A DNA stretch of 64,000 bases from Rhynchopus sp. YZ270_cl-10 (taxonomy: Eukaryota). This document shows positions 9,515-54,442 of the stretch, piece by piece (position 1 is the stretch's first letter; the number at the start of each line of letters is the position of its first letter). The notes under the pieces were generated by a model that was not told the DNA's origin, did no database searches, and saw nothing but the letters and a program-made list of their open reading frames with translations. Location of the stretch: positions 124,001-188,000 of the forward strand of contig OZ037836.1 in assembly GCA_964035575.1 (NCBI GenBank). Direction: 5' to 3'. The position numbers were made by a program, and so were the translations under genes.

Positions 9515-10960
9515 TCACATGCACACACAATCGCGCTTGTTCTTCTTCTTGAGTCCAAGGCTGTCCACGACACTGCTCGATCCGGTGACGTTGATGCTGC
9601 ATTTACGTAAGTTGCATTCGTTGAGTGCTCCTCGCCCAATATGCGTCGCACTCGCCCACCCAGATAAGTCCAGTGTTCGCAACGAGCTGCAATAGGTGAT
9701 GAAGTCGTATCCAACGTGGGTTACATTGTTCCACCCAGACAAGTTGAGCTTTTTCAGTGAGCTGCAGCCGAAGATGAAGCTGTTGCCGATATGCGTCACA
9801 CCCTTCCACGCGGAGAGGTCCAACTCGGTCAATGCACGGCAGCTGGAGAGGAAGTCAGATCCAACGTGCGTCACGTTGCTCCACCCAGATACATCCAGCT
9901 TCGTTAATGAGCTGCACTTGTGGAGGAAGTAGTCCGTAATTTGCGTCACCTTGCTCCACCCAGATACGTCCAGTGTGGTCAACGAGCTGCAGTTGGAGAG
10001 GAAGGAGCTGCCAACCTGCGTCACGTTGCTCCACCCAGACAAGTTAAGTGTTCGCAATGCGCTGCAGTCGGAGAGGAAGCTATCCTCAATTTGCGTGACG
10101 TTGTTCCACGCAGGCAAGTCAAGTGTGGTCAACGAGCTGCACTCCTTCAGGAAGGCACTCCCAACATGTACCACATTCTTCCACCCAGATAAGTCCAGTG
10201 CGGTCAGGGCACGGCAGTTGTAGAGGAAGGAGCGGTCAATGTGTGTTACATTGCTGCACCCAGCGATGTCAAGTGTGTGCAATGCGCTGCAGTCGGAGAG
10301 GAACCCTCCACCAATGTGCGTCACATTGGTCCAACTAGATAAGTCAAGTGTCTGCAACGATCCGCAGTTGAAGAGGAACGAGGTTTCAATGTGCGTCACA
10401 CTGGTCCAACCAGACAAGTCAAGTCTCGTCAACCTGGTGCAGCAGTCGAGAAAGGAGCTTCCAATGTGCGTCACATTGCTCCACCCAGATAAGTCAAGAA
10501 CGCGCAATGAGTTGCAGCTGGAGAAGACGTAGTCGCGTATTGTGGTAACACCTGACACACCACTCAGATCAAGTTCCCTAAAATAAGCCCTCAAATCTTC
10601 CAATAAATCATGTGTAATCTCAGTAACAACCTCCGCCTGCAGAAACAAATGAACCAGCTTGGGATCTGCAAGGAGTTCGAACCTCTCTGACGTCAGCCTT
10701 GTCTCACCCAAGTCACGAAGAGCTGCAATGGCGTCGTCCTTCTGCGACTTCGTCTTCGTCAGCACAACTGTGTCCCCAGCACTCAGCTGCGTCGTGTCGT
10801 CTCCTTCGGCCAGCAGCTTCCCACCGAAGCTCATGTCAAAGCCGTCTTCGCACAACTCTGCTGCAGTCGCCACCTTCCGCCGTATGTCCGCAGTTGTATC
10901 ATCCACACCCACCTCGACTGTGTACTTCTCTCCGTCAAAGCTCTCCACACATATTTCCAT
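9515..10960 (-). CDS. UBL + 13 LRR (25-aa BspA-like) protein with polybasic CaaX tail (KKKNKRDCVCM), 481 aa
   Basis: Intact ORF. The start was chosen at MEICVESF, shared by paralogues. Ubiquitin-like N-terminus (YTVEVGVDDTTADIRRKV...MSFGGKLL...LSAGDTVVL); repeats LDLSGWxNVTxIGxxFLxxCxxLxx. Confidence 0.9.
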   Translation of the reverse strand: MEICVESFDGEKYTVEVGVDDTTADIRRKVATAAELCEDGFDMSFGGKLLAEGDDTTQLSAGDTVVLTKTKSQKDDAIAALRDLGETRLTSERFELLADPKLVHLFLQAEVVTEITHDLLEDLRAYFRELDLSGVSGVTTIRDYVFSSCNSLRVLDLSGWSNVTHIGSSFLDCCTRLTRLDLSGWTSVTHIETSFLFNCGSLQTLDLSSWTNVTHIGGGFLSDCSALHTLDIAGCSNVTHIDRSFLYNCRALTALDLSGWKNVVHVGSAFLKECSSLTTLDLPAWNNVTQIEDSFLSDCSALRTLNLSGWSNVTQVGSSFLSNCSSLTTLDVSGWSKVTQITDYFLHKCSSLTKLDVSGWSNVTHVGSDFLSSCRALTELDLSAWKGVTHIGNSFIFGCSSLKKLNLSGWNNVTHVGYDFITYCSSLRTLDLSGWASATHIGRGALNECNLRKCSINVTGSSSVVDSLGLKKKNKRDCVCM

Positions 10961-11847
10961 GGTTTTGTGTCTCTCTGTTTTGTGCAGGTGTTTTGGGTGG
11001 GGCAAGAAGAAACACAACTCGCAGAACGGGAAGGAGACAAGAAGAAGGCAGACATGTTGCCACTGAGACGATAGAGGTGTAAGACAAAGGGGACACCTCT
11101 GTGTGCAGAACTGTATGCTGCAAGGCTGTGATGGGATGGGAGGGATGTCTCTCTCTCTGTGGGGGTGGACAAGTGTCAAAAGGGGAAGTGGTAGGGAGTG
11201 TGTGTGTGGTGTGCAAGAGACAGCAAACAGTTAAACAGTTACAAGGGGAGAGGTCTTTTGATTTGCTTTATAACATTCGCTGTATTACGGGTGGGTCCAG
11301 ATGGGCTGCACTATGTGTTTGGTCCGGTTGGGTGGGTGAAAAAACGGACACGGTTCGAGGTTTTATTTGCTCGCATTGTTTGATCGCATCCCACAGGCGC
11401 AACTCTCGGGGAGGTGGGGTGGGGTAGAATGCACCTGAAAGTGCTGTAGGGAAAAAACAGGGAATAGTATTCTGGGAATTATTACATTTTCAAGTAATCC
11501 CGATCCCAATCCACTAGACCTGATTATTCCCACAAAAAAAGCCTTTTTACCCAAACCCCCCTCATGATACAGTACACGGTTCGGAAAAGTACTTTGCCCA
11601 AAAGTAAAGTACTTTCCAAAAACAAAAAAAAGTACCTTTATTGGTGTGACCACCCAAACCGATTCTCCGAGGTTCTTCCGTGGTTCTTCCGTAGGTACTC
11701 CGGTAAGGGGGGTATACTTTTTTTTTGTTGTTTTCGGTATTCGCCACCCGGGGGGCTTCGAGACCACCACCTGCACGCGGGTGCCACAAACATCCAGACC
11801 GGGAAAGCTTCCAAGGCGGTCATGGCATATATAGTTGCGTATTACAC

Positions 11848-12529
11848 ACAGTACAGTACAGTACAGTACAGTACAGTACAGTACAGTACAGTACAGTACA
11901 GTACAGTACAGTACAGTACAGTACAGTACAGTACAGTACAGTACAGTACAGTACAGTACAGTACAGTACAGTACAGTACAGTACAGTACAGTACAGTACA
12001 GTACAGTACAGTACAGTACAGTACAGTACAGTACAGTACAGTACAGTACAGTACAGTACAGTACAGTACAGTACAGTACAGTACAGTACAGTACAGTACA
12101 GTACAGTACAGTACAGTACAGTACAGTACAGTACAGTACAGTACAGTACAGTACAGTACAGTACAGTACAGTACAGTACAGTACAGTACAGTACAGTACA
12201 GTACAGTACAGTACAGTACAGTACAGTACAGTACAGTACAGTACAGTACAGTACAGTACAGTACAGTACAGTACAGTACAGTACAGTACAGTACAGTACA
12301 GTACAGTACAGTACAGTACAGTACAGTACAGTACAGTACAGTATAGTACAGTACAGTACAGTACAGTACAGTACAGTACAGTACAGTACAGTACAGTACA
12401 GTACAGTACAGTACAGTACAGTACAGTACAGTACAGTACAGTACAGTACAGTACAGTACAGTACAGTACAGTACAGTACAGTACAGTACAGTACAGTACA
12501 GTACAGTACAGTACAGTACAGTACAGTAC
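11848..12529. repeat. (GTACA)n pentamer satellite, about 136 copies
   Basis: Directly visible; single GTATA variant at 12341-12345. Confidence 0.98.
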
Positions 12530-14575: not shown

Positions 14576-15658
14576 TCACATGCACACACATTTGCACTCG
14601 ACCATTTCCACGTCGCGGCTATGCACTACGTATTCTGACACAACACTGCTCGATCCGGTGACGTTGACGCCTTTTGTACGTATTTTGCATCCTTTTAGGA
14701 ATCCTGAATGTATATAGCGCACATTGTTCCATCCAGACAAGTCAAGTCTGGTCAATGACTTGCAGTTACTGAGAAACTCGTAGAGGATGGACGTCACATT
14801 GCTCCACCCAGACAAGTCAAGTGTGGTCAACTCATCACATTCGGAGAAGAAGTCGTTGGGAATTGTAGTAACTTTGTTCCACCCAGACAAGTCAGCGGTT
14901 CGCAATGCGCTGCATTCCGTGATGAAGCCCGAGCCCAAATGCGTCACATTCGTCCAACCAGACAAGTCAAGTGTGGTCAATGCTCTGCAGTACTTGAGGA
15001 ACTCGCACCCAACGTGCGTCACATTGGTCCAACTAGATAAGTCAAGTGTGCGCAAAGATCCGCAGTTGAAGAGGAAGTTGATTCCCACGTGCGTCACATT
15101 GCTCCACCCAGATAAGTCAAGTCGCGTCAAGCTTTTGCAGTTGAAGAGGAAGTTGTTCCCCACGTGCGTCAAATTGCTCCACCCAGATAAATCAACAGTG
15201 TGCAATGATCTGCATTTGGAGAAGACGTCGTTGCGTATTGTGGTAACACCTGACACACCACTCAGATCCACTAAACAGCCGTTCAACCTGCCACCAGGTT
15301 TAAAAAAGCTATTGGGGATCTCAGTAACAACCTCCGCCTGCAGAAACAAATGAACCAGCTTGAGATCTTCCAGACCTTCGAACCTCTCTGACGTCAGCCT
15401 TGTCTCACCCAAGTCACGAAGAGCTGCAATGGCGTTGTACTTCTGTGAGTTATTCTTCAGGACGATTGTATCCCCAGCACTCAGCTGCGTGATGTAGTCT
15501 CCTTCGGCCAGCAGCTTCCCTCCGAAGCTCATGTCAAAGCCGTCTTCGCACAACTCTGCTGCAGTCGCCACCTTCCGCCGTATGTCCGCAGTTGTATCAT
15601 CCACACCCACCTCGACTGTGTACTTCTCTCCGTCAAAGCTCTCCACACATATTTCCAT
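14576..15658 (-). CDS. UBL + 8 LRR protein with CaaX tail (ECKCVCM), 360 aa
   Basis: Intact ORF, paralogue of 9515-10960. Confidence 0.9.
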   Translation of the reverse strand: MEICVESFDGEKYTVEVGVDDTTADIRRKVATAAELCEDGFDMSFGGKLLAEGDYITQLSAGDTIVLKNNSQKYNAIAALRDLGETRLTSERFEGLEDLKLVHLFLQAEVVTEIPNSFFKPGGRLNGCLVDLSGVSGVTTIRNDVFSKCRSLHTVDLSGWSNLTHVGNNFLFNCKSLTRLDLSGWSNVTHVGINFLFNCGSLRTLDLSSWTNVTHVGCEFLKYCRALTTLDLSGWTNVTHLGSGFITECSALRTADLSGWNKVTTIPNDFFSECDELTTLDLSGWSNVTSILYEFLSNCKSLTRLDLSGWNNVRYIHSGFLKGCKIRTKGVNVTGSSSVVSEYVVHSRDVEMVECKCVCM

Positions 15659-16737: not shown

Positions 16738-18177
16738 TCACATGCACACACAATCGCGCTTGTTCTTCTTCTTGAGTCCAAGGCTGTCCACGACACTGCT
16801 CGATCCGGTGACGTTGATGCTGCATTTACGTAAGTTGCATTCGTTGAGTGCTCCTCGCCCAATATGCGTCACACTCGCCCACCCAGATAAGTCCAGTGTT
16901 CGCAACGAGCTGCAATAGGTGATGAAGTCGTATCCAACGTGGGTCACATTGTTCCACCCAGACAAGTTGAGCTTTTTCAGTGAGCTGCAGCCGAAGATGA
17001 AGCTGTTGCCGATATGCGTCACACCCTTCCACGCGGAGAGGTCCAACTCGGTCAATGCACGGCAGCTGGAGAGGAAGTCAGATCCAACGTGCGTTACGTT
17101 GCTCCACCCAGATACATCCAGCTTCGTTAATGAGCTGCACTCGAGGAGGAAGTAGTTCGTAATTTGCGTCACCTTGCTCCACCCAGATACGTCCAGTGTG
17201 GTCAACGAGCTGCAGTTGGAGAGGAAGGAGCTGCCAACCTGCGTCACGTTGCTCCACCCAGACAAGTCAAGTGTTCGCAATGCGCTGCAGTCGGAGAGGA
17301 AGCTATCCTCAATTTGCGTGACGTTGTTCCACCCAGAAATATCAAGTGTGGTCAACGAGCTGCATTCCTTCAGGAAGGCACTCCCAACATGTACCACATT
17401 CTTCCACCCAGATAAGTCCAGTGCTGTCAAGGCACGGCAGTTGTAGAGGAAGGAGCGGTCAATGTGTGTTACATTGCTGCACCCAGTGATGTCAAGTGTG
17501 TGCAATGCGCTGCAGTCGGAGAGGAAGTTGTTCTCAATGTGCGTCACCTTGTTCCACCCAGATAAGTCCAGTGCGGTCAAGGCACGGCATTTGTAGAGGA
17601 AGGCAAATGGGATATGTGTCACATTGTTCCACCCAGACACGTCAAGGGTTCGCAATGCGCTGCAGTCGGAGAGGAAGGAGAACCCGGTGTGGGCCACATT
17701 GCTCCACCCAGATAAATCAGCTGTGTGCAATGAGTTGCAGTCGTTCAAGAATTTGCCGCGTATTTTGGTCACACCTGACACACCGCTGAGTTGAAGTTCT
17801 GCGAACGTGCCTCCTTTGAAGGAGCCTTCGGGAATCTCAGTAACAACCTCCGCCTGCAGAAACAAATGAATCAGCTTGGGATCTGCAAGACGCTTGAACC
17901 TTTCTGACGTCAGCCTTGTCTCACCCAAGTCACGAAGAGCTGCAATGGCGTCGTCCTTCCGCGACGTCTTCTTCTTCAGCACAACTGTGTCCCCAGCACT
18001 CAGCTGCGTCGTGTCGTCTCCTGCGGCCAGAAGCTTCTCTCCGAAGCTCATGTCAAAGCCGTCTTCGCACAACTCTGCTGCAGTCGCCACCTTCCGCCGT
18101 ATGTCCGCAGTTGTATCATCCACACCCACCTCGACTGTGTACTTCTCTCCGTCAAAGCTCTCCACACATATTTCCAT
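16738..18177 (-). CDS. UBL + 13 LRR protein with polybasic CaaX tail, 479 aa
   Basis: Intact ORF; the 3' two-thirds is near-identical to 9515-10960. Confidence 0.9.
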   Translation of the reverse strand: MEICVESFDGEKYTVEVGVDDTTADIRRKVATAAELCEDGFDMSFGEKLLAAGDDTTQLSAGDTVVLKKKTSRKDDAIAALRDLGETRLTSERFKRLADPKLIHLFLQAEVVTEIPEGSFKGGTFAELQLSGVSGVTKIRGKFLNDCNSLHTADLSGWSNVAHTGFSFLSDCSALRTLDVSGWNNVTHIPFAFLYKCRALTALDLSGWNKVTHIENNFLSDCSALHTLDITGCSNVTHIDRSFLYNCRALTALDLSGWKNVVHVGSAFLKECSSLTTLDISGWNNVTQIEDSFLSDCSALRTLDLSGWSNVTQVGSSFLSNCSSLTTLDVSGWSKVTQITNYFLLECSSLTKLDVSGWSNVTHVGSDFLSSCRALTELDLSAWKGVTHIGNSFIFGCSSLKKLNLSGWNNVTHVGYDFITYCSSLRTLDLSGWASVTHIGRGALNECNLRKCSINVTGSSSVVDSLGLKKKNKRDCVCM

Positions 18178-31138: not shown

Positions 31139-31308
31139 TGAACAAGATAAAAACAAAAAAGCTCGCGTTTCTTTTATCGAACAGATATTATTCTCCGCCC
31201 CGTACCCAAAACGTAAACACCACTTTGAATCAGAAAAAATATTTTCCTCTCCTTTTTTCTTCCACACGCGCTGGTTTTTGTGTTCGCTCATTTTTATCAA
31301 AAAGCTTT
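31139..31308 (-). mobile_element. Terminus B of the non-autonomous family, inverted orientation
   Basis: Reverse complement of 8493-8662 (begins TGAACAAGATAAAAC). Confidence 0.8.
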
Positions 31309-43108: not shown

Positions 43109-46100
43109 TTATCGCGGGGCAAACCCGAGACGCCCCTGGGACGTGTCGTGGTGCCCTTTCCCGCAACAGGCCTGAGGAGACGCCAGCATCGGCAATCCGT
43201 CCTTCTTCCTCTTCCGTCCCGCCTGTACACATGCACCGCAAGCACCCCTCCCGTGGGCCACACAGTTGTGGTGTTTCTGACAGCACTGCTTCATCGACAC
43301 GTTCCCCGCACCCGCACACTGTCCGCACATCGAGAAGTTATGCACCTCACACGCCTCACGCGCCTCCACACAGTCACCCAAAATAAGCTCATCACAATGG
43401 TGCGTCGCACAGCACGCCGTGATGGAGATGTTGTTGTGCTCGCAGTCCCCGCATCGCATCTTGGTGTGTATGTCACACACCCGCATGGTCCCCACCTTCC
43501 TCCTTACGTCCACACGCACAGCCGGTGTCTGCCGCCTGCGTGCCACCTGCCGTCGAATCTGCGCTGCCGCAACTGCAGCTAGCGCAGCTCTACTACGCAC
43601 CTCCTCTGCCTGCTTCTGCTCTTCCTTCGTTTCCTTCCAGCGTTCGTTCTTTGCGGAGCGTTCTTCTGGAGTGGAAGTGTGAGCTACATCCGCGTCGTCA
43701 CCCCACCTCGCCTTCGTCTTTTCTTTTTGTCGGGAGAGTGCTCTCCGCGACGTCGCTTTCTCCTGCAACTCCTTCAGGTACCCTTCAACCCCCGCCGCAT
43801 GCGTCAGCACAGGTCGCACAGAATACCCCGTCATGATCCCCGCACCCAGTTCCTGTAAGTGGTGCACCTCCCTCTTCTCCACTCCTTTCCATACGTCCCT
43901 TCCATGCGCCATCGTTTTCGCCGTCCGCATCATGGCACCAAAAGATTCGGCCCTCTTCAACACCGTCTCACCCGGTACGTCCAACCCCGAGAAGATCTCA
44001 AAGTCCAGCATGAGCTCGAGCTGCGTGATGGGGGGCGTTGTGCCATCAGGCCAACGCAATGCAGCGAGCCATGCCTTCAGCGCCCAGAAGTGGTCTTCCG
44101 TCCAGCGTGGACTCTTCTTCATGTATTTGCTCCCCCACAGTACGTTCTCCAGCGGGTTGTAGCTCTCAAGCACTGCACCCTCCTGAGGATTCCAGCCCCA
44201 AGGAAAAAGGGATTGGCCCACCACCGCCTGCTTCTTCTTCTTCTGCGAAAACCCATGTTCCACGTCGTACTTCTGCCTTGCCAGCGCGATGCTGACCAGC
44301 ATCAGTTGCACACGACGCACCGTCTGCTCTCTCTCCGCAACACTCAGCTCCTGCAAGAATATCGTCGGCACCAGGCCAAAGTCCAAGAAGCACGGGGGTG
44401 CGTCTTTGAGCAAAACCCTGAGTTTTCCGATGTCCTCTCCACGAATTTCGTCCCACTGCGGGCACCACCACCAAGCGTGTCTCCGGTCCTCTATCGCCTC
44501 ACCACAGTATCGGCACAACGAAGACTCCACCTCCTTGTTCCTCAGTAGCTGCACCCCCACCAACTGAGAACCCGACAAGGCTCCGCGTATCGCGCCCGCC
44601 AGGTATCTGTCGGTCGTGCGGTCCTTCCACACTGCGTTCGTCGCCTGGCGATCCACACCTCCCTCAATGCCCTGCATCGACGGCCTCGTCGTCACTGTCA
44701 GGCGGTACGCGTGTGCACGGATGCCCTCTCTCAGCTCATGCAGCCATTTGCCCTTGTCCCACAGACGAACGTGCACCCTCAACCCGATGTGTGTCGTCCA
44801 GAAGTCGAAGCTGCTCCACCGCCATCCGTATCGCTCCAGGTCGTCCCACAACAACTCTATCACACCCTTCTTGTGCACTTCAGTTTCCCTTGGGTTGGCA
44901 ACCCCAGGGTTCTCGCGCCGGAGACGTGCCAGATCTGAAGCCCTGTCACGCCGCCTCACCTCCCGCTCCGCTCTTCGGTCATGTGCCAGCCTCCACACTT
45001 CTTCTGCTTCTCTCCGCATGCCGTCATCTTCTGTCAGTCGAAGAAAGGCCGCCATCCTCCTCTGTACAATCTCCGCTGGCGCATCAATCCCGACCGGAGA
45101 CAACACATGCCACACAATGTTCAGCGTGCGCTGCTTCCTGCCCTGCCCCCAGATTGCTAGTGCAGCCCCTTGCCTCAGCGTCTCGATGGTCTGCTTCGAG
45201 AAGTCTGTCACTTCACACCCATGCAACGCTGCCATCATTGGTCCCCTTGCGCCAATAAGTGCCTTCTCAGTGAAGGATAATGGCACACTCGAAACCCTCG
45301 TAAACACACGGTGCGCAGTAACCGCACGCTCACGCGCGATGGGCCCGAAGTTCCCCTTTCCAGCCAAAATGTCTGCTCCAACCGCCCCGAACTGCTTCTT
45401 GTCGGGGAAGAACCCGTCGCCAAGTCCAAACTTCGTCTTTGTTCCCTCCTTCGAGGTAAACCCTACGCACTTCTCTGCTTTGACCTCCATGTCCGCAGCA
45501 GTGATGAACTCCTTCGTCACCCTCGCAGCACCATGCACCTCCGCTTCCGTGTTCGCCACAGCGTACACGTCGTCAGCGTACCCCATGGCGATTGCTCCGG
45601 TCCTTCTCGTCACTGCAGATCCCCACACCGCCATCAGCGCGTTCAACAGCACGACAGAAAGTGGGCATCCTTGCAGGATACCATTTGTCGTGCGGAAAGC
45701 GCCTCCCACACCTACGTCTCCCAACTTGAAGCGGCGTTCCATGGCAGTGTACGCCGCCCTCAGTGGTCCAAGAATACGCCAGTGCGCGCCCCACTCCTCC
45801 GCCAGCGATAGCACAATCTCATGAGGCACACGATCGAAACATTTGGCGTAGTCGATCGTGAAACCCCATACCTGGTCTGTGTCGTCACCCGACAGCACCG
45901 CCTTCTCCAGCTTGAGCGACAAATGCCAGTACAGGTGTGCAGTGCTGTGTCCTGCTCTGAAGCCGTGCTGTTGCTCACCAATCCAGCTTTCCTGCCACTT
46001 TATCAGTCTTCGCAACCTCGCTGCCGCCCACAGCCTGTACACACACGATGTGATCGTGATAGGCCGCTGCTTCAGCGGAGTGTCGTCTTCCCCTTTGGGG

Positions 46101-47875
46101 ATGAGCGCAATGAGTGCTCTCATCAAAGAAGGCGGCCACTCCCCCGTACACTCAATCGCATCAAACACATCTGCCAGCCTGTCGAGCAGCACCAGAGGAA
46201 GCGCCTTCAGCTCTGCCATGCGCCAACCCTCCACCCCAGCAGAAGTTTGTGTCTTCATCCTCCCCAGAGTTTGCTGCAACTCCTTCCCCGTCAGCCTGTC
46301 CATCTGCATCGCTTGCCCCTTGCCTGCGATGTCTTCTGCAAACTTCTCCCTGAACGCACCCCAGTCGGGCTCTGGCTTTTCCGCATATCGGCGAAGAATC
46401 GGCATCCACGCCTCATGCAGGAGGGTGTCCATCTCCTCAGCGTTGGCGGTGAACTTCCCATCCTCGTTCTTCAGGGCAGTCATCTTCCTGTACTGCTCGT
46501 CCTTGCAGTATTTGAAGATCGCCTTGGGAGCATTGTGCCATGCATCCCGTAGGCGCTGCCGCCAGTCCTCCAGTCGCTTCCGCTTCACTCGGTCCGCAAG
46601 CGTTGACACCTTCACTCGCACAGCTCTGCACAGATCCACCAAAGCCTCCTCGCTAGGCATATCCTGTTGCAGTGAGTCGTCGTCCAGCAGAACGCGCAGT
46701 TCCTTCCGCGCCTTGCTCCAACAATTGCACACGTCATGTGGCGGCACACCACCGTTGCTCCTCACGTACCACAGCCGACATTCTTCCAGCCTGCCCACGT
46801 TCTTCGTCAGCCTTCTTTGGCTCACTGTCAGAGCGTCCCCTTCCTTGCTCTGCTTCGCAGTCCGGTGCTTCGGCTTCGGGTCAAACGTTTTGCCTCTTCC
46901 GCAATACGCCTTCGTCGGGCCCTCAATCTCGCCTTCGCACGCCTGCAGCAAGAAGTCCTCTGCCCACTTATTCCACTGTATCCACCTATCCTGAGGGTGT
47001 TGAAGCGCCCCCCACTGCAGCTCCTTGCTCGCAAACGCCTTTTGTGCATTCTTCACGCCTTGTCCACACTTCTCCAAAGGGAACTGCTTCGGCAGAGTGT
47101 ACGCGAGCACGATCTGTCTGTACGCACCTACATCCAGCGCTATCTCTACCGGTCTGTGCTGCGGGAGCCCAGAGTCGTGGACAACCTTCACAGACGACAG
47201 CCCTGTGCACGCAGCTCGGTTCAGCAGAACGTAATCGAGCCTCTTGCGGATCTCCTTGCCCTCCTTCACTGAGAAGTAGGTGTTGTCCGGGGTCGTCCCA
47301 AGCACCCTTGCGTGCTCTTCGGCAGTGTCCTTCCACCATCCTGTGTCCAGTGTAGCAGCCAGCACACCTGATTTCCCTGGACCTGCGTTGAAATCCCCAC
47401 CAATCACCCCAGGAATATCACCAAGCTCTGCAGCAGCCTCCATCACCTCGCCAAGTATTTTCTCCCTAGCCTCCGGGTCCGCCGACGGCGCGTAGACGGA
47501 GGTCACGTCGATCCACTCGTTGCCTTTGCCGTACGCCACCTTCGCCTTCACCCATCGCGTTGAGTCCCAGAGGTTCTTTTCCAAGGTTGAGGAGGGCGGG
47601 CTCGTGAGCACAGGTATTCCCTCTTGCACCAGAATCGCAACACCACCAGATTTCGCTTCTTCGGCCGACCTCCATTCCGGCAACTCCTTACCCCACACCA
47701 CCTGCCAACCCTGCTCGCGGTACTCGATGGAGAGGCGCTTCTGCGTCGTCACGGTGCACTTTGTCTCTTGTACCAGAACAACGTGAGCATCCTCCGCAAC
47801 CTTCAGCAGAGAGCTCCCGCCTGTCTGCAGCGCCGTCACATTGCTGCACACTATCTTTAGTGGGGCAAGGCCCAC
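43109..47875 (-). CDS. LINE ORF2: APE endonuclease, reverse transcriptase, CCHC-like zinc knuckle, C-terminal triple Cys/His repeat
   Basis: APE motifs SNV, VQET, SVYAP, GGDFNA, RLDYV, QHRP; RT motifs QRPI, QHGFR, DYAKCFDRV, GILQGCPLS, YADD (45569-45580); CRYCGEAIEDRRHAWWWC. Start codon uncertain (no AUG). Confidence 0.93.
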   Translation of the reverse strand: MGLAPLKIVCSNVTALQTGGSSLLKVAEDAHVVLVQETKCTVTTQKRLSIEYREQGWQVVWGKELPEWRSAEEAKSGGVAILVQEGIPVLTSPPSSTLEKNLWDSTRWVKAKVAYGKGNEWIDVTSVYAPSADPEAREKILGEVMEAAAELGDIPGVIGGDFNAGPGKSGVLAATLDTGWWKDTAEEHARVLGTTPDNTYFSVKEGKEIRKRLDYVLLNRAACTGLSSVKVVHDSGLPQHRPVEIALDVGAYRQIVLAYTLPKQFPLEKCGQGVKNAQKAFASKELQWGALQHPQDRWIQWNKWAEDFLLQACEGEIEGPTKAYCGRGKTFDPKPKHRTAKQSKEGDALTVSQRRLTKNVGRLEECRLWYVRSNGGVPPHDVCNCWSKARKELRVLLDDDSLQQDMPSEEALVDLCRAVRVKVSTLADRVKRKRLEDWRQRLRDAWHNAPKAIFKYCKDEQYRKMTALKNEDGKFTANAEEMDTLLHEAWMPILRRYAEKPEPDWGAFREKFAEDIAGKGQAMQMDRLTGKELQQTLGRMKTQTSAGVEGWRMAELKALPLVLLDRLADVFDAIECTGEWPPSLMRALIALIPKGEDDTPLKQRPITITSCVYRLWAAARLRRLIKWQESWIGEQQHGFRAGHSTAHLYWHLSLKLEKAVLSGDDTDQVWGFTIDYAKCFDRVPHEIVLSLAEEWGAHWRILGPLRAAYTAMERRFKLGDVGVGGAFRTTNGILQGCPLSVVLLNALMAVWGSAVTRRTGAIAMGYADDVYAVANTEAEVHGAARVTKEFITAADMEVKAEKCVGFTSKEGTKTKFGLGDGFFPDKKQFGAVGADILAGKGNFGPIARERAVTAHRVFTRVSSVPLSFTEKALIGARGPMMAALHGCEVTDFSKQTIETLRQGAALAIWGQGRKQRTLNIVWHVLSPVGIDAPAEIVQRRMAAFLRLTEDDGMRREAEEVWRLAHDRRAEREVRRRDRASDLARLRRENPGVANPRETEVHKKGVIELLWDDLERYGWRWSSFDFWTTHIGLRVHVRLWDKGKWLHELREGIRAHAYRLTVTTRPSMQGIEGGVDRQATNAVWKDRTTDRYLAGAIRGALSGSQLVGVQLLRNKEVESSLCRYCGEAIEDRRHAWWWCPQWDEIRGEDIGKLRVLLKDAPPCFLDFGLVPTIFLQELSVAEREQTVRRVQLMLVSIALARQKYDVEHGFSQKKKKQAVVGQSLFPWGWNPQEGAVLESYNPLENVLWGSKYMKKSPRWTEDHFWALKAWLAALRWPDGTTPPITQLELMLDFEIFSGLDVPGETVLKRAESFGAMMRTAKTMAHGRDVWKGVEKREVHHLQELGAGIMTGYSVRPVLTHAAGVEGYLKELQEKATSRRALSRQKEKTKARWGDDADVAHTSTPEERSAKNERWKETKEEQKQAEEVRSRAALAAVAAAQIRRQVARRRQTPAVRVDVRRKVGTMRVCDIHTKMRCGDCEHNNISITACCATHHCDELILGDCVEAREACEVHNFSMCGQCAGAGNVSMKQCCQKHHNCVAHGRGACGACVQAGRKRKKDGLPMLASPQACCGKGHHDTSQGRLGFAPR

Positions 47876-47883
47876 GGTCGTGA

Positions 47884-50529
47884 TTAATACGACCTTTCTC
47901 GGTTATTGTCCGTGTCGCGGGGGCGGCTGTTCTCGTCCGTCGTCGTATCTTTCTTCTTCTCCTCACCGCCACGATCTTGAGCATCCCTGGCCTTGTCCTT
48001 GGCCTCGCGAGCTGCCTTCTTCAGCGCCTCGTTCTCCTCCGTGAGCCGCTTGCTCTCCGCTGCCAGCTGCACGTTCTGGTCCTTGCACTGCTGCACCGTC
48101 TCCTTCATCTCAGCACATTCTGCTCTGAGCTGTTCCATGTCGAGAGGCTGCGGCGGTTGCGCGACTGGTGCCGACTGCTGCGGCTGCCCCATCATCCGCT
48201 TCTGTGCCTCCAACATCTCCTTCTGCTGCTCCATGACGCCCTTCATCATCTCCCGCAATTCCTTCATCTCCTGCTTCATCATCTCTATCTCTACCTGCGC
48301 TGCTGATGAAGCTGCGGGAGGTGCCGGAGCCGCCGGTGCCCCTGTTGCAGGGTGGGGTCGAGCTGCAGGTGGTGCGTATCCCCTCGCCTTAGCCGCCCAC
48401 GTGCCAGCGCCGCTCTCTGCTGCTCCTTGCCTCGGTACTGGGAACTGCGCCAGAGGGAAACCCCACGGATTCGCACCCACCTTCTGCACACGACGCCCTT
48501 CCTTCACCGCACACACCGTCAGCACCAATCCACCCACCTCCAGCACCCCTTCTGTGCTCGGGCACGTCACATCCGACGTAACGGTCCACTTGTGCCCTCG
48601 CGACAGCACCTTCACCGTCCAGCTCGCCTCTCTCGCCAGCCCCTCACACAACAGCTGGAACGACGTGTTCGCCGGAATTCCCCCAATCTCGTACCTGTGT
48701 CCCTGCACGACGACGTCCTCCTGCACAAGAAGCCTCTTCGCAGCCTCCAAGTCCCCCTTCATCACCCGCACCGCGTAGCCCCCTTCCCCTACGGCGAGTC
48801 CGCGCACGCTATCCTCCATGTTCTCCTCGACAAGGTCCAGCCGTGCCAGAGCAGACTCCAGCGGTTCCGCCTTCCACAACAACCCACAGTCCCCGTACTC
48901 CTTTGCCTGGAAGAGGTGCCGCACAAACACCCCTTCCCGTCCGCTTCTCCTCAGCATGGCGCACACCATGTCCTCCGTCACGTCCACAGACATCTCCATC
49001 CATCCTCCTCTCTCCAAGCCGCGTCCACACCGCACCCCCTGCAACCCGTACCACCGACGCATGCGTTGCTCTCCCTTTGTGCGTCCCTCCCCCTGGAGCA
49101 ACATCGTTCTGCCCATCAGCGTAATCAGCTTGCTCGAGAACGTGCTCTCCACCGGCTTCACCACGTCGTCCAAGTTAGTTGTCATGGACGACAGCCACAC
49201 TTCTTCCACCTTTGCTCCCCGCTCCGTCCTCACCGCCACCTTCGCCTTCTTCGTGCGCGCTGCACCCGTACACTTCGAACGGGACACAATCACCATCTGC
49301 GGAAGTTGGTGCAGCAACTGTAACCCCTGCAGAAGTTCGCTCGCCTTCCACGCAACTGCCGCCACCTGCGTCACCCCTTCCACATTGCTGGGCACTGCAT
49401 CCCACACCGGGATTTTCCATCCCTGGGTCGCCAGGTTCAGTGCATCCTCCGCTGCGCTCTGGGTCACCGCCGTCGCCTTCTTCTTCCCCTTCACAGCTGT
49501 AGCCGGTACGTGCAGTTGCGGTTGTCCCACTGCGCACAGAAGTTCCTCCCCCACCTTCAACCCTGCCGATTCCACAGCACCGTAGTGGACCCCCTCGAAC
49601 CCCAGGACTACGTCAGACTCCGAGAAGATGAGGTTAGCCTTCTCCGGTGTTCCTTCTGCCAGCTGCCCGTCGGACTGCCCGTCGATCAGCGTAGCCCGTA
49701 GCGCGTTCTCCGGTCCAACGTCAAGCACAACAATGCGGACCTTCATCACCTTGGCGATCGCATGGAGACACAAATGGTCCCCCCATGTCCCCAGCTGCGC
49801 CATGCCTGCCAGGTATGCATCAATGCACCCCTCGTCCACAAATGGGCTGTAGTGTGCCTTCTGCTCCTTCATCACCTCAACTGCGAGCCTGCGGAAGCCT
49901 GCGTGACCATTCGGGGACCGCTCCACAGACCACGCCACCGACCGGAACAGACAGTCCCCCTTGCCCCCACATTCCTCCCATCGCAACCCCCATCTTTCCA
50001 GGTGTCCCTTGACACCTGGCTGCACGGCAGCTGCCAGCGTCTCCGTCCTGCATCCCCTTGCGGCGTACCCCCCTCCTGCAACCAGCTGGGCGTTGCTCTC
50101 TGCCTCCTTCATCCCCTTCCCCGCATTCGCGCAGTGCTGCAGCGATACCCTTATCCCCCTCTTCTTCAACTCGCCCAGCAGCGCCTTCACCTTCTCCAGC
50201 CTCGGCTTCAGCAACGACGAGTCGCAGGCGTGCCCCTCAGCCACCTGCCTCCAGACCACCAAGTGTGTGACCCACACGCGCGCGTGGGTGCCCTTCGGGT
50301 ACGACCCGTCGGCCACCCCTTGCAGTCCGAGCAGGATGCCCTCGTACGCGGCTTCCGCCTTGGTGATGTTGGCCAGGCGGCGGGTCACTTCCCAGTGCGT
50401 TGCTGGTTCCTCCTCCGTCGCATCACGCGCCAGCGCACACAGTCCCGTCGTGTCCTGCACCTTCACCCCAGGAAATACTCCGATGAAGAGGTCCGGATCC
50501 TTCCTCTCCTCCCCAGCACTGCGCTTCAT
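47884..50529 (-). CDS. LINE ORF1: degenerate RNase H-like fold + OTU cysteine protease + C-terminal coiled coil
   Basis: TKAEAAYEGILLGL...HLVVWRQV...LLKPRLEKVKALL (RNase HI-like pattern); GGKGDCLFRSVA...YLAGMAQLGTWGDHLCLHAIA...GVHYGAV (OTU); E/M/K/Q-rich heptads. The upstream ATG at 50748 lies inside the ribozyme, so the ATG at 50529 (MKRS) is preferred. Confidence 0.85.
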   Translation of the reverse strand: MKRSAGEERKDPDLFIGVFPGVKVQDTTGLCALARDATEEEPATHWEVTRRLANITKAEAAYEGILLGLQGVADGSYPKGTHARVWVTHLVVWRQVAEGHACDSSLLKPRLEKVKALLGELKKRGIRVSLQHCANAGKGMKEAESNAQLVAGGGYAARGCRTETLAAAVQPGVKGHLERWGLRWEECGGKGDCLFRSVAWSVERSPNGHAGFRRLAVEVMKEQKAHYSPFVDEGCIDAYLAGMAQLGTWGDHLCLHAIAKVMKVRIVVLDVGPENALRATLIDGQSDGQLAEGTPEKANLIFSESDVVLGFEGVHYGAVESAGLKVGEELLCAVGQPQLHVPATAVKGKKKATAVTQSAAEDALNLATQGWKIPVWDAVPSNVEGVTQVAAVAWKASELLQGLQLLHQLPQMVIVSRSKCTGAARTKKAKVAVRTERGAKVEEVWLSSMTTNLDDVVKPVESTFSSKLITLMGRTMLLQGEGRTKGEQRMRRWYGLQGVRCGRGLERGGWMEMSVDVTEDMVCAMLRRSGREGVFVRHLFQAKEYGDCGLLWKAEPLESALARLDLVEENMEDSVRGLAVGEGGYAVRVMKGDLEAAKRLLVQEDVVVQGHRYEIGGIPANTSFQLLCEGLAREASWTVKVLSRGHKWTVTSDVTCPSTEGVLEVGGLVLTVCAVKEGRRVQKVGANPWGFPLAQFPVPRQGAAESGAGTWAAKARGYAPPAARPHPATGAPAAPAPPAASSAAQVEIEMMKQEMKELREMMKGVMEQQKEMLEAQKRMMGQPQQSAPVAQPPQPLDMEQLRAECAEMKETVQQCKDQNVQLAAESKRLTEENEALKKAAREAKDKARDAQDRGGEEKKKDTTTDENSRPRDTDNNRERSY

Positions 50530-50658
50530 GCCGCCTGCCCCCGGGTACGTCTGCTGCCGTAGCCCCTCAGCCCAGTGCACCTGCTCCGCCGCCGACGTCA
50601 CCTCATCACTGCAACAGCAGTTCCACGACCTGCAGCACACAGGCGCCGGCGGGTGTGG

Positions 50659-50788
50659 CGTCCACTTGGCCGATCCGTGTGACGGATCGTTGCCCGGGAT
50701 ACTCCGCGTGGAGGCTGGACGTGACTTCGACACCATGTACGAAAACATTGTTTATATTCTTTCTTTTTGTGTACGTTGTGTGTATCCC
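50659..50788 (-). ncRNA. HDV-like self-cleaving ribozyme at the exact 5' end of the LINE
   Basis: P1 GGGAUAC/GUAUCCC; P2 CGUCCA/UGGACG; P3 GCC/GGA around L3 UCCACGC; P1.1 CC/GG; GCAA linker; P4 CGAUCCGU/ACGGAUCG; J4/2 GCCAAG with candidate catalytic C at 50669. Confidence 0.85.
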
Positions 50789-51986
50789 TCCAGAGTGGTT
50801 AAAGCTTTGCAGCCGTCAAGAAAGCAATGACCCAACACAGTCACGTTGCTAAGTGGCGAGAGATCGAGGGTGGTAAATTTGCAGCCGGAGAGAAAGTAGT
50901 TACCAACCACCGTCACACTGCTCAACCCAAAGATGTCGATACTTGTTAACGATGTGCACTCGGACAGAAAGTAGTCACCTACCTGCGTCACATTCCTCAA
51001 CCCAGAAAGGTCCATGCTTGTTAACGAGGTGCAGTTGTAGAGAAAGTAGTCGCCAATGCGTGTCACAAAGGACACAGCACTCAGATCAAGTGTTGTTAAC
51101 GATGAACCCGACAAGAATGCTTTCGGAATGACAGTCGCAACCTCCGCCTGCAGAAGCAAACACGCCACCTCAGGATCCTCCACCTCCTCCAACCGCTCTG
51201 CCGTGATGTTTCTCTCACCCAACGCATGAAGTGCTGCTATGGATTCGTACTTCTGTGTTTTTGTGAGGATAATTGTGTCACCAGCACTCAGCTGCGTCAT
51301 GTCCGCTCCTTCTCCCATCGCTTCGTCTCCGAAACTCATGCAAAAGCTGTCTTCAGGCAACCCCATTGCAGACGCCACCTTCCGCCGCAAGTCCTCCACT
51401 GTGTCATCTGCACCCACCTCGACTGTGTGCTGATTCGCTCTGAAATCCTCGAAGTGCACGTCCATTTGTTTGTTGTGGTTTTGTGTTCTGAGCTCTGTGT
51501 GTGTGGTGGTGGGGAGTGGAGGACAACAAACCCTTGTGGTCCTTCTGAAAGAACCTTGCTTATGTTTACAGTGTTCCGACACCACTGATCGAGTGAACAA
51601 TCAGCCTGGAGCAAATGTGGCAAAACTACCAAACAAAAAGGGGTGGACGTTTGATTTTTCATCACCTGTTTGTCATATTCCACAAGCCCGTACAAATTCA
51701 ATCACGACAGAAACATTCTTTTTGAATGTCGGATGCTGTACCTAAAGGTATAAAAACCCTGTTTGCCTTTTGTGTAGCACAAACGAAAAGTCCCACTTGT
51801 TTGAATCATTACCCACCACAAAGTATTTGTCCTGATAAAAATATATAGCGTGAGATAATCTAAACGTACACGCTGTGTGCTGTGCTACATAGCGGGCTTC
51901 CTCAAACACAAATGGCATGTGAGCCACCACTTGGTACCGCGAACCTCGCCAATATGAGGCTGAAACCACCACAGCACACCTCATCG

Positions 51987-52952
51987 TCATTGTGCGGCTC
52001 TCTGCCGTTTGTGTGCCTGCTCGGGGGATTCGTCTCTGCTGCGTTTCGGACGTGCTTCAACCACAAGCTTGCTCAGTTCCCCGTTCCTCACTTCGTTGGA
52101 CACAGCACTGCTGCAGCCGGTAAGGTAAACACTCTTCAACGAAGTGCGGCTCGCAACAAAACGCCGACCAACACATGTAACCCTGCTGAGTCGCGACAAA
52201 TCTAGGGTGGTTAAACCTTCGCAGGCCCAGAGAACGTGGCTACCAATTTCTGTCAAGTTGATGAGTGGTGAGAGATCCAGAGTGGTTAAAGCTTTGCAGC
52301 CGTCAAGAAAGTAACTACCAAACACGGTCACGTTGCTGAGTGGCGAGAGATCGAGGGTGGTAAATCTGCAGCCGGAGAGAAAGCAGTCACCAACATCCGT
52401 CACACTGCTCAACCCAGAAAGGTCGATGCTTGTCAACGATCTGCACTCTTGTAGAAAGTTGTCACCAACCACCGTCACATTCCTCAACCCAGAAAGGCCC
52501 ATGCTTGTTAACGAGGTGCAGTTGCAGAGAAATTCACCTCCAATGTCAGTCACAAAGGACACAGCACTCAGATCAAGTGTTGTTAACGATGACTCCCTCA
52601 AGAACCCATCAGGAATGACAGTCGCAACCTCCGCCTGCAGAAGCAAACACGCCACCTCAGGATCCTCCTCAGTGGCCAACGCCTCTGCCGTGATGTCTGT
52701 CACACCCAACGCATGAAGTGCTGCTATGGATTCGTGCTTCTGCGTTTTCGCGAGGATGATTGTGTCACCAGCACTCAGCTGCGTCATGTCCGCTCCTTCT
52801 CCCATCGCTTCGTCTCCGAAACTCATGCAAAAGCTGTCTTCAGGCAACCCCATTGCAGACGCCACCTTCCGCCGCAAATCCTCCACTGTGTCATCTGCAC
52901 CCACCTCGACTGTGTGCTGATTCGCTCTGAAATCCTCGAAGTGCACGTCCAT
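51987..52952 (-). CDS. UBL + LRR protein with bipartite NLS-like tail, 321 aa
   Basis: Intact ORF; tandem unit of about 1.49 kb. Confidence 0.92.
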   Translation of the reverse strand: MDVHFEDFRANQHTVEVGADDTVEDLRRKVASAMGLPEDSFCMSFGDEAMGEGADMTQLSAGDTIILAKTQKHESIAALHALGVTDITAEALATEEDPEVACLLLQAEVATVIPDGFLRESSLTTLDLSAVSFVTDIGGEFLCNCTSLTSMGLSGLRNVTVVGDNFLQECRSLTSIDLSGLSSVTDVGDCFLSGCRFTTLDLSPLSNVTVFGSYFLDGCKALTTLDLSPLINLTEIGSHVLWACEGLTTLDLSRLSRVTCVGRRFVASRTSLKSVYLTGCSSAVSNEVRNGELSKLVVEARPKRSRDESPEQAHKRQRAAQ

Positions 52953-53473
52953 TTGTTTGTTGTGGTTTTGTGTTCTGAGCTCTGTGTGTGGTGGTGGGGT
53001 GCGGAGGACAACAAACCCTTTGTGGTCCTTCTGAAAGAACCTTGCTTATGTTTACAGTGTTCCGACACCACTGATCGAGTGTACAATCAGCCTGGAGCAA
53101 ATGTGGCAAAACTACCAAACAAAAAGGGGTGGAGACGGGGTGGACGTTTGATTTTATTCATTTATTTGTCATATTCCACAAGCCTATACAAATTCAATCA
53201 CGACAGAAACAGTCTTTTTGCATGTCCCTAAAGATATAAAAACCCCGTTTGCCTTTTGTGTAGCACAAACAAAAAGACTCATACGTATGAATCATTACCC
53301 ACCACAAAGTATTTGTCCTGATAAAAATATATAGCGTGAGATAATCTGAACGTACACGCTGTGTGCTGTGCTACATAGCGGGCTTCCTCAAATACAAATG
53401 GCACGTGAGACACCACTTGGCACCACGAACCTCGCCAATTCTGAGGCTGAACCCACCACAGCACACCTCATCG

Positions 53474-54442
53474 TCATTGTGCGTGTTTCTGCCGTTTGTG
53501 TGCTTGCTGGGGGGATTCGTCTCTGCTGCGTTTCGGACGTGCTTTAACAACCACAAGCTCGCGCAGCTCTACATTCCCCATTGCGTCGGACACAGCACTG
53601 CTGCAGCCGGTAAGGTAAACACTCCTCAACGAAGTGCAATACTCAATAAATGGATTACCAACATTAGTAACCCTGCTGAGTGGTGACAAATCTAGGGTGG
53701 TTAAACCTTCGCAGGCCCAGAGAACGTGGCTACCAATTTCTGTCAAGTTGCTGAGTGGTGAGAGATCCAGAGTGGTTAAAGCTTTGCAGCCGTCAAGAAA
53801 GCAATGACCCAACACAGTCACGTTGCTAAGTGGCGAGAGATCGAGGGTGGTAAATTTGCAGCCGGAGAGAAAGTAGTTACCAACCACCGTCACACTGCTC
53901 AACCCAAAGATGTCGATACTTGTTAACGATGTGCACTCGGACAGAAAGTAGTCACCTACCTGCGTCACATTCCTCAACCCAGAAAGGTCCATGCTTGTTA
54001 ACGAGGTGCAGTTGTAGAGAAAGTAGTCGCCAATGCGTGTCACAAAGGACACAGCACTCAGATCAAGTGTTGTTAACGATGAACCCGACAAGAATGCTTT
54101 CGGAATGACAGTCGCAACCTCCGCCTGCAGAAGCAAACACGCCACCTCAGGATCCTCCACCTCCTCCAACCGCTCTGCCGTGATGTTTCTCTCACCCAAC
54201 GCATGAAGTGCTGCTATGGATTCGTACTTCTGTGTTTTTGTGAGGATAATTGTGTCACCAGCACTCAGCTGCGTCATGTCCGCTCCTTCTCCCATCGCTT
54301 CGTCTCCGAAACTCATGCAAAAGCTGTCTTCAGGCAACCCCATTGCAGACGCCACCTTCCGCCGCAAGTCCTCCACTGTGTCATCTGCACCCACCTCGAC
54401 TGTGTGCTGGTTCGCTCTGAAATCCTCGAAGTGCACGTCCAT
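53474..54442 (-). CDS. UBL + LRR protein with bipartite NLS-like tail, 322 aa
   Basis: Intact ORF; the uninterrupted twin of the LINE-disrupted copy. Confidence 0.92.
   Translation of the reverse strand: MDVHFEDFRANQHTVEVGADDTVEDLRRKVASAMGLPEDSFCMSFGDEAMGEGADMTQLSAGDTIILTKTQKYESIAALHALGERNITAERLEEVEDPEVACLLLQAEVATVIPKAFLSGSSLTTLDLSAVSFVTRIGDYFLYNCTSLTSMDLSGLRNVTQVGDYFLSECTSLTSIDIFGLSSVTVVGNYFLSGCKFTTLDLSPLSNVTVLGHCFLDGCKALTTLDLSPLSNLTEIGSHVLWACEGLTTLDLSPLSRVTNVGNPFIEYCTSLRSVYLTGCSSAVSDAMGNVELRELVVVKARPKRSRDESPQQAHKRQKHAQ

What the first reader, a model, noticed from the sequence alone, without database searches (positions are those of the whole stretch)
9515..54442. Expanded UBL-LRR family with two alternative address tags: membrane (CaaX) vs nucleus (bipartite NLS)
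Seen: nine full-length-type copies plus three fragments share a UBL (no di-Gly, so not conjugatable), a helical linker (LLQAEV) and 25-aa LRRs. Three end in CVCM, preceded either by a polybasic run (KKKNKRD) or an extra Cys (ECK). Six carry KR-x10-KRQ(R/K), one of them out of frame. Known: CaaX plus polybasic or palmitoyl-Cys are the two Ras-type membrane signals; KR-x10-basic is the classical bipartite NLS; integral UBLs can bind the proteasome; BspA-like LRR proteins with CaaX tails occur in Entamoeba. Inference: a repertoire of intracellular sensors or adaptors in which variable LRRs bind targets and the UBL couples them to degradation, deployed to two compartments. This is a candidate protist cell-autonomous immunity or effector system.
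Basis: partly seen in the sequence, partly recalled or inferred. Interest (0 to 1): 0.82.

Follow-up and report, generated by a model that had tools for sequence, protein, structure and literature searches.

The report
Address-tagged ubiquitin-head LRR binder library
This eukaryote, likely a diplonemid flagellate, carries hundreds of copies of a protein with a constant ubiquitin-like head and a fast-changing leucine-rich-repeat body, most ending in a predicted membrane tag or a predicted nuclear tag, and they likely form a library of intracellular binders, possibly defensive, that may hand different targets to one shared partner; expression, location and targets are untested.

Summary
The window has nine UBL-helical cap-BspA/TpLRR genes. 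Six are intact; three are broken (frameshift, 139-bp insert, 7.8-kb LINE). Three fragments lie upstream of the stated range. The family is genome-wide: 267 retrieved proteins carry the full N-terminal module, about 90 on this contig, and no named homologue has the architecture. The UBL fold is confirmed (TM 0.81-0.86 to ubiquitin); the repeats match TpLRR best (Z 17.9). Tails follow clades: 84 bipartite NLS, 74 CVCM-type (65 ending in Met), 9 CSVS nested inside the NLS clade, and a few hydrophobic tails. The UBL is under purifying selection (omega 0.15-0.27). An exposed LRR stripe away from the concave sheet shows omega about 2 (p 0.003; weaker in stricter tests). The proteasome-shuttle step is doubtful: the Ile44 position is Ser/Gly/Arg and the domain is strongly acidic. 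B-box-coiled-coil (TRIM-like) relatives exist, and an OTU-bearing LINE inserts repeatedly at one LRR register, like trypanosome RHS hot spots. Best reading: a birth-and-death repertoire of intracellular binders with a constant docking head and compartment tags, probably conflict-driven. Function is untested.

The parts
9515..10960 (-). A1: intact gene, 481 aa, UBL (1-68) + helical cap + about 14 LRRs + polybasic KKKNKRD-CVCM tail
14576..15658 (-). A2: intact gene, 360 aa, UBL + cap + about 9 LRRs + ECK-CVCM tail (upstream Cys)
16738..18177 (-). A3: intact gene, 479 aa, near-copy of A1 in its 3' two-thirds, KKKNKRD-CVCM tail
29300..30220 (-). B1: intact gene, 306 aa, UBL + cap + LRRs + bipartite-NLS tail
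35763..36720 (-). B2: LRRs intact; a 2-nt deletion just before the tail puts the NLS out of frame (ORF ends at 35833, 295 aa)
37600..38732 (-). B3: gene split at the end of the UBL by a 139-bp insert (38378-38516) flanked by a 19-bp duplication; NLS tail on the 3' piece
42722..43032 (-). 3' piece of B5 (last LRRs + NLS tail), 99.8% identical to B7
43033..50788 (-). 7,756-bp non-LTR retrotransposon inserted in B5 at the conserved Leu-Asp of an LRR, with a 19-bp target-site duplication; ORF1 47884-50742 has an OTU domain with Cys and His motifs, ORF2 43109-47902 has an APE endonuclease and reverse transcriptase
50789..51465 (-). 5' piece of B5 (UBL + cap + about 5 LRRs), reading through into the LINE 5' end
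51987..52952 (-). B6: intact gene, 321 aa, bipartite-NLS tail
53474..54442 (-). B7: intact gene, 322 aa, 7 LRR strands, bipartite-NLS tail; AF2 model pLDDT 92
1..420 (-). degenerate LRR-only fragment with a frameshift, running off the window
1829..2014 (-). UBL-only fragment without a start codon, broken at the end of the UBL
8355..8509 (-). degenerate UBL fragment

Best explanation
These genes belong to a lineage-restricted family of hundreds of proteins with a constant acidic ubiquitin-fold head, a three-helix cap and a variable number of BspA/TpLRR repeats, and they likely act as intracellular adaptors: the fast-changing LRR stripe would bind different, probably foreign or fast-evolving, targets, the head would dock on one shared host partner, and the tail is predicted to place each protein on a membrane (farnesylated CVCM plus a basic run or extra Cys) or in the nucleus (bipartite NLS). 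Shown: architecture, fold of the models, family size, tail classes, clade structure, selection pattern, frequent pseudogenes. Inferred: prenylation, nuclear import, target binding by the variable stripe, a common partner for the head, and conflict with symbionts, viruses or mobile elements as the driver. The shared partner is probably not a canonical Ile44-patch proteasome receptor.
For: UBL fold: TMt 0.81-0.86, rmsd 1.4-1.7 A to ubiquitin; Z 12-13 to ubiquitin and type II UBLs. LRR best match TpLRR, Z 17.9; the linker is aligned over by LRR proteins with helical N-caps (YopM, InlC2, SspH1, IpaH; model range starting at 70-74). 267 of 369 retrieved proteins have the full N-module. The head is conserved (many columns at 97-100%) with omega 0.15 (B) and 0.27 (A). 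LRR positions 14, 17, 18, 21, 22, 24 have 2.6-3.7 bits of entropy, against 0.1-2.2 at concave positions. Omega is 1.9-2.35 for the seven variable positions against 0.26 concave and 0.3-0.46 framework, p 0.002-0.004; intact B genes alone give 2.09, p 0.0035; other exposed positions give 0.38. Tails: 84 bipartite NLS, 74 CVCM-type, 65 of 74 with X = Met, which matches the Met/Gln preference of T. brucei farnesyltransferase (PMC3206815, passages). A second Cys-tail group (CSVS) is nested in the NLS clade; AU rejects joining it to CVCM, p 5e-6. B-box-B-box-coiled-coil-UBL-LRR relatives exist.
Against: No target, partner or localisation was tested. Selection is weaker in stricter tests: variable codons alone omega 1.95, p 0.06; A genes 1.4, p 0.095. 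The linker is near neutral (0.9-1.4) in these small sets. The codon model ignores gene conversion and multi-base changes, and the site class came from family entropy. The variable stripe is not the concave sheet, and such positions may be loosely constrained in any TpLRR. 3 of 9 genes here are broken; 20 of 104 NLS-type tails have lost a basic cluster; 61 of 267 members carry neither tag. CSVS ends in Ser, a poor substrate for T. brucei farnesyltransferase.
Confidence: 0.53

Rival explanations
1. One reading: ubiquitin-independent degradation adaptors whose UBL binds the proteasome (Rpn1/Rpn10/Rpn13) or Cdc48 directly, as Rad23/Dsk2-type shuttles do.
For: The N-terminal UBL is structurally as close to the Dsk2, Rad23, BAT3 and midnolin UBLs as to others (Z 11-12). 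No di-Gly. Phe at the Leu8 position in 77% of members.
Against: In the ungapped alignment to ubiquitin the Ile44 position is Ser 81%, Gly 12%, Arg 4%, the Arg42 position is Asp/Cys, and the net charge is about -9. That this patch drives receptor binding is recalled knowledge. The conserved surface is acidic (D20-D21, E38-D39, D63).
Confidence: 0.2
2. Mostly passive expansion: tandem duplication in a transposon-rich region, with most copies dead or redundant and the LRR variation neutral.
For: 3 of 9 genes broken plus 3 fragments; 13 of 267 members read into LINEs; 35 further proteins break inside the head, mostly at two hot spots; near-identical recent duplicates.
Against: Purifying selection on the UBL and framework, omega above 1 at the stripe, and retention of tags over deep divergence with an independent gain of a Cys tail.
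Confidence: 0.1
3. Housekeeping signalling or regulatory scaffolds (as SHOC2 or SDS22 are, recalled), diversified for endogenous partners such as the expanded receptor-like proteins nearby, with no role in conflict.
For: Conserved concave face suggests one constant ligand; Ras-like membrane tails; SDS22 and Rsu1 among fold neighbours.
Against: Birth-and-death turnover, restriction to one lineage in the searched libraries and omega of about 2 fit an arms race better than stable scaffolding.
Confidence: 0.1
4. Exported effectors that act inside prey or host cells and use the recipient's prenylation and nuclear import, as some bacterial effectors do.
For: CaaX and NLS tags, LRRs with helical caps like YopM/IpaH, rapid diversification.
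Against: The N-terminus is the UBL itself with no hydrophobic leader (by inspection); X = Met fits the organism's own likely farnesyltransferase; no delivery system is evident.
Confidence: 0.07

Closest known systems
Entamoeba and Trichomonas BspA-like (TpLRR) expansions (PMC2843621 and PMC8136499, passages)
   Same: TpLRR/LRR_5 repeats, very large paralogue families (911 in T. vaginalis; 111-1,320 in Entamoeba), CaaX tails in several E. histolytica members
   Different: Those are treated as surface adhesins of parasites, and 'ubiquitin' does not occur in the Trichomonas paper's main text. Here there is a constant N-terminal UBL + cap, a large NLS-tailed class, and no secretion leader.
Type II UBL proteins: Rad23/Dsk2 shuttles; also TBCE/TBCEL and MUB/UBL3 (recalled)
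   Same: Integral, non-conjugatable beta-grasp domain; MUB/UBL3 also pair a ubiquitin fold with CaaX
   Different: Ile44 position polar; no UBA detected; the UBL precedes the LRRs (opposite order to TBCE/TBCEL); multi-domain and present in hundreds of copies
Ubiquitin + DUF285 (PARCEL repeat) clusters in the ESM Atlas
   Same: Ubiquitin-like domain joined to a 25-26-aa LRR-like solenoid; A1 scores 118 bits on PARCEL model TIGR02167, cut-off 30
   Different: Scores 0.81-0.83 are leads only, taxa mostly unrecorded; no sequence match to the UBL-cap module among the 150 hits listed; probably a parallel architecture
Trypanosome RHS (retrotransposon hot spot) family (PMC7563717, passages)
   Same: Lineage-specific family of hundreds, constant N-terminus with variable C-terminus, many pseudogenes, nuclear members, fixed LINE insertion site
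   Different: [quoted passage not shown]
Variable-LRR immune repertoires and adaptors (plant NLR, VLR, F-box-LRR, TRIM; recalled)
   Same: Constant effector or docking module plus diversifying repeats, gene clusters, birth and death; some relatives have two B-boxes and a coiled coil
   Different: No NB-ARC/NACHT, F-box or RING; variation lies off the concave sheet; compartment tags on the tail

Membership tests
Integral (type II) ubiquitin-like domain | beta-grasp fold | tested here: met
   TMt 0.81-0.86, rmsd 1.4-1.7 A to ubiquitin; Z 13.2, rmsd 1.2 A over 71 residues; Pfam ubiquitin E 4e-5 to 6e-5, just under the cut-off
Integral (type II) ubiquitin-like domain | no di-Gly after the fold | tested here: met
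   0 of 226 members have GG at residues 65-82
Rad23/Dsk2 UBL-UBA proteasome shuttles | hydrophobic Ile44 patch on the UBL (feature recalled) | tested here: not met
   position 44 is Ser 81%, Gly 12%, Arg 4%; net charge -9
Rad23/Dsk2 UBL-UBA proteasome shuttles | UBA domain | tested here: inconclusive
   the linker has three helices but was not folded and searched alone; LRR proteins with helical N-caps align over it
Rad23/Dsk2 UBL-UBA proteasome shuttles | binding to proteasome receptors | not testable with these tools
   no eukaryotic proteasome subunit was available as a partner
BspA/TpLRR proteins | LRR_5 repeats and TpLRR fold | tested here: met
   PF13306 51-178 bits against cut-off 27.7; best fold match 6mlx TpLRR, Z 17.9, rmsd 2.8 A, 187 aligned
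BspA/TpLRR proteins | cell-surface exposure | not testable with these tools
   no leader by inspection, but one CaaX-bearing Entamoeba BspA was reported at the surface
Farnesyltransferase substrates (CaaX) | terminal Cys-a-a-X with X = Met/Gln (T. brucei specificity) | tested here: met
   CVCM in A1-A3; 65 of 74 CVCM-type tails end in Met; specificity from PMC3206815 passages. Not met by the 9 CSVS tails
Farnesyltransferase substrates (CaaX) | actual prenylation and membrane binding | not testable with these tools
   needs labelling and imaging
Classical bipartite NLS proteins | KR-x(10-12)-K(K/R)x(K/R) pattern (recalled) | tested here: met
   84 of 104 NLS-type tails keep both clusters, 80 with a 10-residue spacer; the pattern itself selected the 84
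Classical bipartite NLS proteins | importin-dependent nuclear import | not testable with these tools
   needs imaging
TRIM proteins | RING + B-box(es) + coiled coil | tested here: not met
   window copies have none; relatives P0279, P0291, P0321, P0370, P0371 have two B-box matches (best 24.6 bits, cut-off 24.1) and a helical segment, but no RING at E 0.1
NLR / VLR immune receptors | nucleotide-binding domain; hypervariable concave beta-sheet (recalled) | tested here: not met
   no NB domain in Pfam; concave positions conserved, omega 0.21-0.26 in B genes
RHS family | ATP/GTP-binding RHS domain | tested here: not met
   no such match in Pfam
RHS family | fixed retroelement insertion site within the gene family | tested here: met
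   9 of 9 family read-throughs into this LINE sit at the same repeat register within 1 nt

The most novel reading that the evidence does not exclude
A cell-autonomous immune repertoire in a free-living protist: hundreds of LRR sensors under diversifying selection, each fused to one constant ubiquitin-fold head that recruits a shared effector, posted by swappable tails to membranes (vacuoles holding symbionts or prey) or to the nucleus (viruses, retroelements), derived from or feeding into TRIM-like B-box proteins, and opposed by a retrotransposon that carries its own OTU deubiquitinase and preferentially inserts into the sensor genes.
Probability: 0.27. Interest if true: 0.88.

Novelty: new variant of a known kind. 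Interest (0 to 1): 0.68.

Why it matters
How free-living protists recognise intracellular invaders is largely open. This family gives a concrete, testable candidate with a simple logic: constant head, diversifying binder, compartment tag. One pull-down with the conserved head would name the effector pathway, and tail swaps would test the addressing. It also extends BspA/TpLRR expansions beyond mucosal parasites into what is likely a free-living euglenozoan. Finally it provides a second case, after trypanosome RHS, of a LINE with a hot spot inside a protein-coding family, here an element with an OTU protease in ORF1.

Tried and rejected
No genome is held for the window, so family size rests on protein searches seeded with B7 and A2; tail proportions are not a census. 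Expression: no RNA holder was listed; the four runs laid on 50650-54750 are contigs, cover genes and intergenic DNA alike, and the 24 loose ends shown (96 more not shown) include nothing I recognised as a leader, so they say nothing on expression. Relatives elsewhere: none confirmed in metagenome, viral or prokaryotic contigs (0 of 238, 0 of 69, 0 of 147 pattern matches); no viral model among the 50 rows shown covers both domains (best TMq 0.39). UBA, F-box or BC-box for the linker: no such Pfam match at E 10 for 8 linkers, no PDB sequence match; the fold search of the N-module was filled by UBLs; the Atlas query on the linker did not complete. One-clade test of all Cys tails on the 115-column head alone did not reject (p 0.124); on whole proteins it gave p 0.037, where two NLS rows kept part of their tail and the groups were named after seeing earlier trees. 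Intron reading of the B3 insert was rejected because it starts GA, not GT, and is flanked by a 19-bp duplication; introns cannot be excluded for breaks at the same place in other members. Paper searches that found no description of this family; of an OTU domain in a non-LTR ORF1: 0 papers; 2 papers; passages of PMC11943222 do not describe one, PMC2836005 seen as a listing only. Supplements of the D. papillatum genome paper were not read and may list such families. Earlier scan notes: nothing relevant. No complex prediction was run, as no defensible partner was available.
Full report
OBSERVATION. Six-frame translation and tblastn find nine minus-strand genes between 9515 and 54442 with one plan: a 68-residue ubiquitin-like head, a 45-residue helical linker ending in LQAEV, 24-25-residue repeats, a capping helix and a short tail. 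Three (A1, A2, A3) end in CVCM. Six (B1, B2, B3, B5, B6, B7) have a KR-x10-KRQ(R/K) tail. Only six are intact. Three decayed fragments lie at about 1-420, 1829-2014 and 8355-8509. Of 214 long ORFs in the window, CxxM ends (3) and bipartite basic ends (5) occur only in family copies.

ORGANISM. It is not given, and no genome is held. The window is eukaryotic: LINEs, microsatellites and long runs of co-oriented, apparently intronless genes. The only named close relative of the head is a Rhynchopus euleeides protein without LRRs (P0350). A diplonemid is therefore likely but inferred. D. papillatum has co-transcribed gene clusters and about 52% repeats, and its genome paper has no 'ubiquitin' or LRR passage in the main text (PMC10161547, passages).

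FAMILY SIZE. B7 gives 794 hits (best 120 seen) and the A2 head 278 (best 120 seen). By hand count 92 of these 229 distinct proteins lie on the same 2.16-Mb contig as the window; the rest are on dozens of others. A full HMMER pass over 1.84 billion representatives lists, among its best 150, further divergent members, polyubiquitin-like proteins and P0350. Of 28 proteins looked up, 27 are unnamed ENA entries. In all, 267 of 369 retrieved proteins hold the whole head + linker. No relative was confirmed in prokaryotic, viral or metagenome contigs. The family looks lineage-restricted; I cannot prove that all ENA entries come from one assembly.

STRUCTURE. The AF2 model of B7 (90-row alignment, pLDDT 92, pTM 0.83) has a beta-grasp head matching ubiquitin at TMt 0.81-0.86, three helices, and a solenoid whose best match is Treponema TpLRR (Z 17.9). 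Pfam LRR_5 passes its cut-off, and A1 also passes the PARCEL model. LRR proteins with helical N-caps align across the linker, so it is most simply a cap; a UBA reading is unsupported but not excluded. The tail is low-confidence (pLDDT 53-66), as expected for a targeting peptide.

THE HEAD. It is the conserved part: omega 0.15 in B and 0.27 in A genes, with many near-invariant columns across 226 members. In the ungapped alignment to ubiquitin the Ile44 position is Ser 81%, Gly 12%, Arg 4%; the median net charge is -9; no di-Gly follows. The conserved surface is acidic (D20, D21, E38, D39, D63, and the QLSAGD segment). A shared partner is likely; a canonical proteasome receptor is less so (role of the Ile44 patch recalled).

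THE REPEATS. Over 294 A-type and 302 B-type units, the concave strand is conserved, while positions 14, 17, 18, 21, 22 and 24 (the x-I-G-x-x-F-L-x-x-C-x side) reach 2.6-3.7 bits. A fixed-class codon model on B genes gives omega 1.9-2.35 at seven variable positions against 0.26 concave and 0.3-0.46 framework (p 0.002-0.004 on four trees). Intact B genes alone give 2.09 (p 0.0035), and a control set of other exposed positions 0.38. Diversifying selection is likely, not proven.

THE TAILS. Of 267 members: 84 bipartite NLS, 20 NLS-type with a cluster lost, 74 CVCM-type, 9 CSVS, 6 other Cys-a-a-X, 13 LINE read-throughs, 61 other or truncated. A few of the last end in a hydrophobic, transmembrane-like segment (P0252, P0256, P0321; by eye). 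65 of 74 CVCM-type tails end in Met; T. brucei farnesyltransferase prefers Met/Gln and not Ser (PMC3206815, passages). The second signal is either-or: upstream Cys 29, basic run 31, both 3, neither 17. Tails track clades. The CSVS group sits inside the NLS clade (SH-aLRT 96), its tail begins like the NLS tail, and AU rejects grouping it with CVCM (p 5e-6; all Cys tails together p 0.037; 38 rows sampled from 267). On the head alone the test did not reject (p 0.124). So the tag has changed at least once more, but tags are not shuffled freely.

RELATIVES WITH MORE DOMAINS. P0279, P0291, P0321, P0370 and P0371 carry two B-box matches and a long helical segment before the head: TRIM-like, without a RING.

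RETROELEMENT HOT SPOTS. The LINE in B5 has ORF1 with an OTU domain (Cys and His motifs present) and ORF2 with APE and RT. Read-through into its 5' end occurs in nine family proteins, A and B types at different repeat numbers, always after C-x-x-L-x-x-L and within one base of the same register. An unbiased search with the LINE's 5' read-through peptide returned 6 chimeras, 5 in this family and 1 in an unrelated gene. Six more members break at the same register into other sequences. Of 35 proteins broken inside the head, 15 break at profile positions 71-74 and 8 at 93-94; two continue into LINE ORFs. This parallels trypanosome RHS genes (PMC7563717, passages). It may reflect only a short target motif that recurs in every repeat, plus tolerance of loss in a redundant family.

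MECHANISM. Shown: architecture, modelled fold, scale, tags, selection pattern, turnover. Inferred: A-type proteins are farnesylated and sit on the cytosolic face of membranes, and B-type proteins enter the nucleus; each binds its target through the variable stripe and brings it, through the constant head (perhaps with the conserved concave face), to one shared partner. Birth and death with omega above 1 points to conflict. I give this 0.53, direct proteasome shuttling 0.2, passive expansion 0.1, housekeeping scaffolds 0.1 and exported effectors 0.07. Kinetoplastids do have lineage-specific LRR-only cullin adaptors (PMC12816148, passages), so a ubiquitin-ligase partner is one candidate.

COMPARISON AND NOVELTY. 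It works like constant-head, variable-repeat adaptor repertoires, and its repeats are BspA/TpLRR, expanded with some CaaX tails in Entamoeba and without them in Trichomonas (PMC2843621 and PMC8136499, passages). It is not a Rad23/Dsk2 shuttle, an NLR, a TRIM or an RHS by the features tested. Ubiquitin + DUF285 clusters in the Atlas are a parallel architecture at lead level only; DUF285 is multi-copy and unexplained in phytoplankton (bioRxiv 10.1101/2024.06.08.598090, passages). Six paper searches found no description of UBL-cap-TpLRR proteins with CaaX or NLS tails; supplements were not read.

Noticed in passing
window 43033-50788 (-): Apparently intact LINE with an OTU cysteine-protease domain in ORF1 (PF02338, E 2.5e-12); a different OTU-bearing ORF1 is fused behind the UBL in P0308. 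Two paper searches found no account of OTU in non-LTR ORF1.
   Followed up: partly
proteins P0238, P0242, P0202, P0316 and P0244, P0267, P0277, P0358: Two other recurring read-through peptides mark further mobile elements inserted at linker position 93-94 in several paralogues.
   Followed up: no
window 18766-20652 and 21966-23824 (-): Two paralogous multi-pass membrane proteins with a cytosolic domain that looks like a degenerate nucleotide cyclase (label recalled; no Pfam or NCBIfam match for the first); the second copy is frameshifted near 22800.
   Followed up: no
window 31596-35600 and 59649-63281 (-): Two paralogous proteins with a leader, a long Pro/Thr-rich stalk and several transmembrane segments; no Pfam match.
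   Followed up: no
window 25266-25955 and 26848-28752 (-): A glutathione S-transferase and a phosphoesterase (phospholipase C-like) with a weak ricin-B-lectin match sit between the A and B clusters.
   Followed up: no
window 1168-1514 and 11848-12529: Perfect (ACAGT)n arrays of 69 and 136 units, each next to similar unique sequence; possibly part of a mobile element.
   Followed up: no
window 4912-5081, 8493-8668, 13249-13424, 16432-16608, 31136-31313: A dispersed repeat of about 170 bp, 87-100% identical, one copy inverted, next to a second 165-bp repeat (2302-2467, 5082-5247, 13079-13241): SINE- or MITE-like.
   Followed up: no
proteins P0293/P0372, P0304, P0322: The family UBL is fused to unrelated C-terminal parts (a P-loop NTPase-like region; a DUF3876-like repeat; an RNI-like segment), suggesting domain shuffling of the head.
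   Followed up: no
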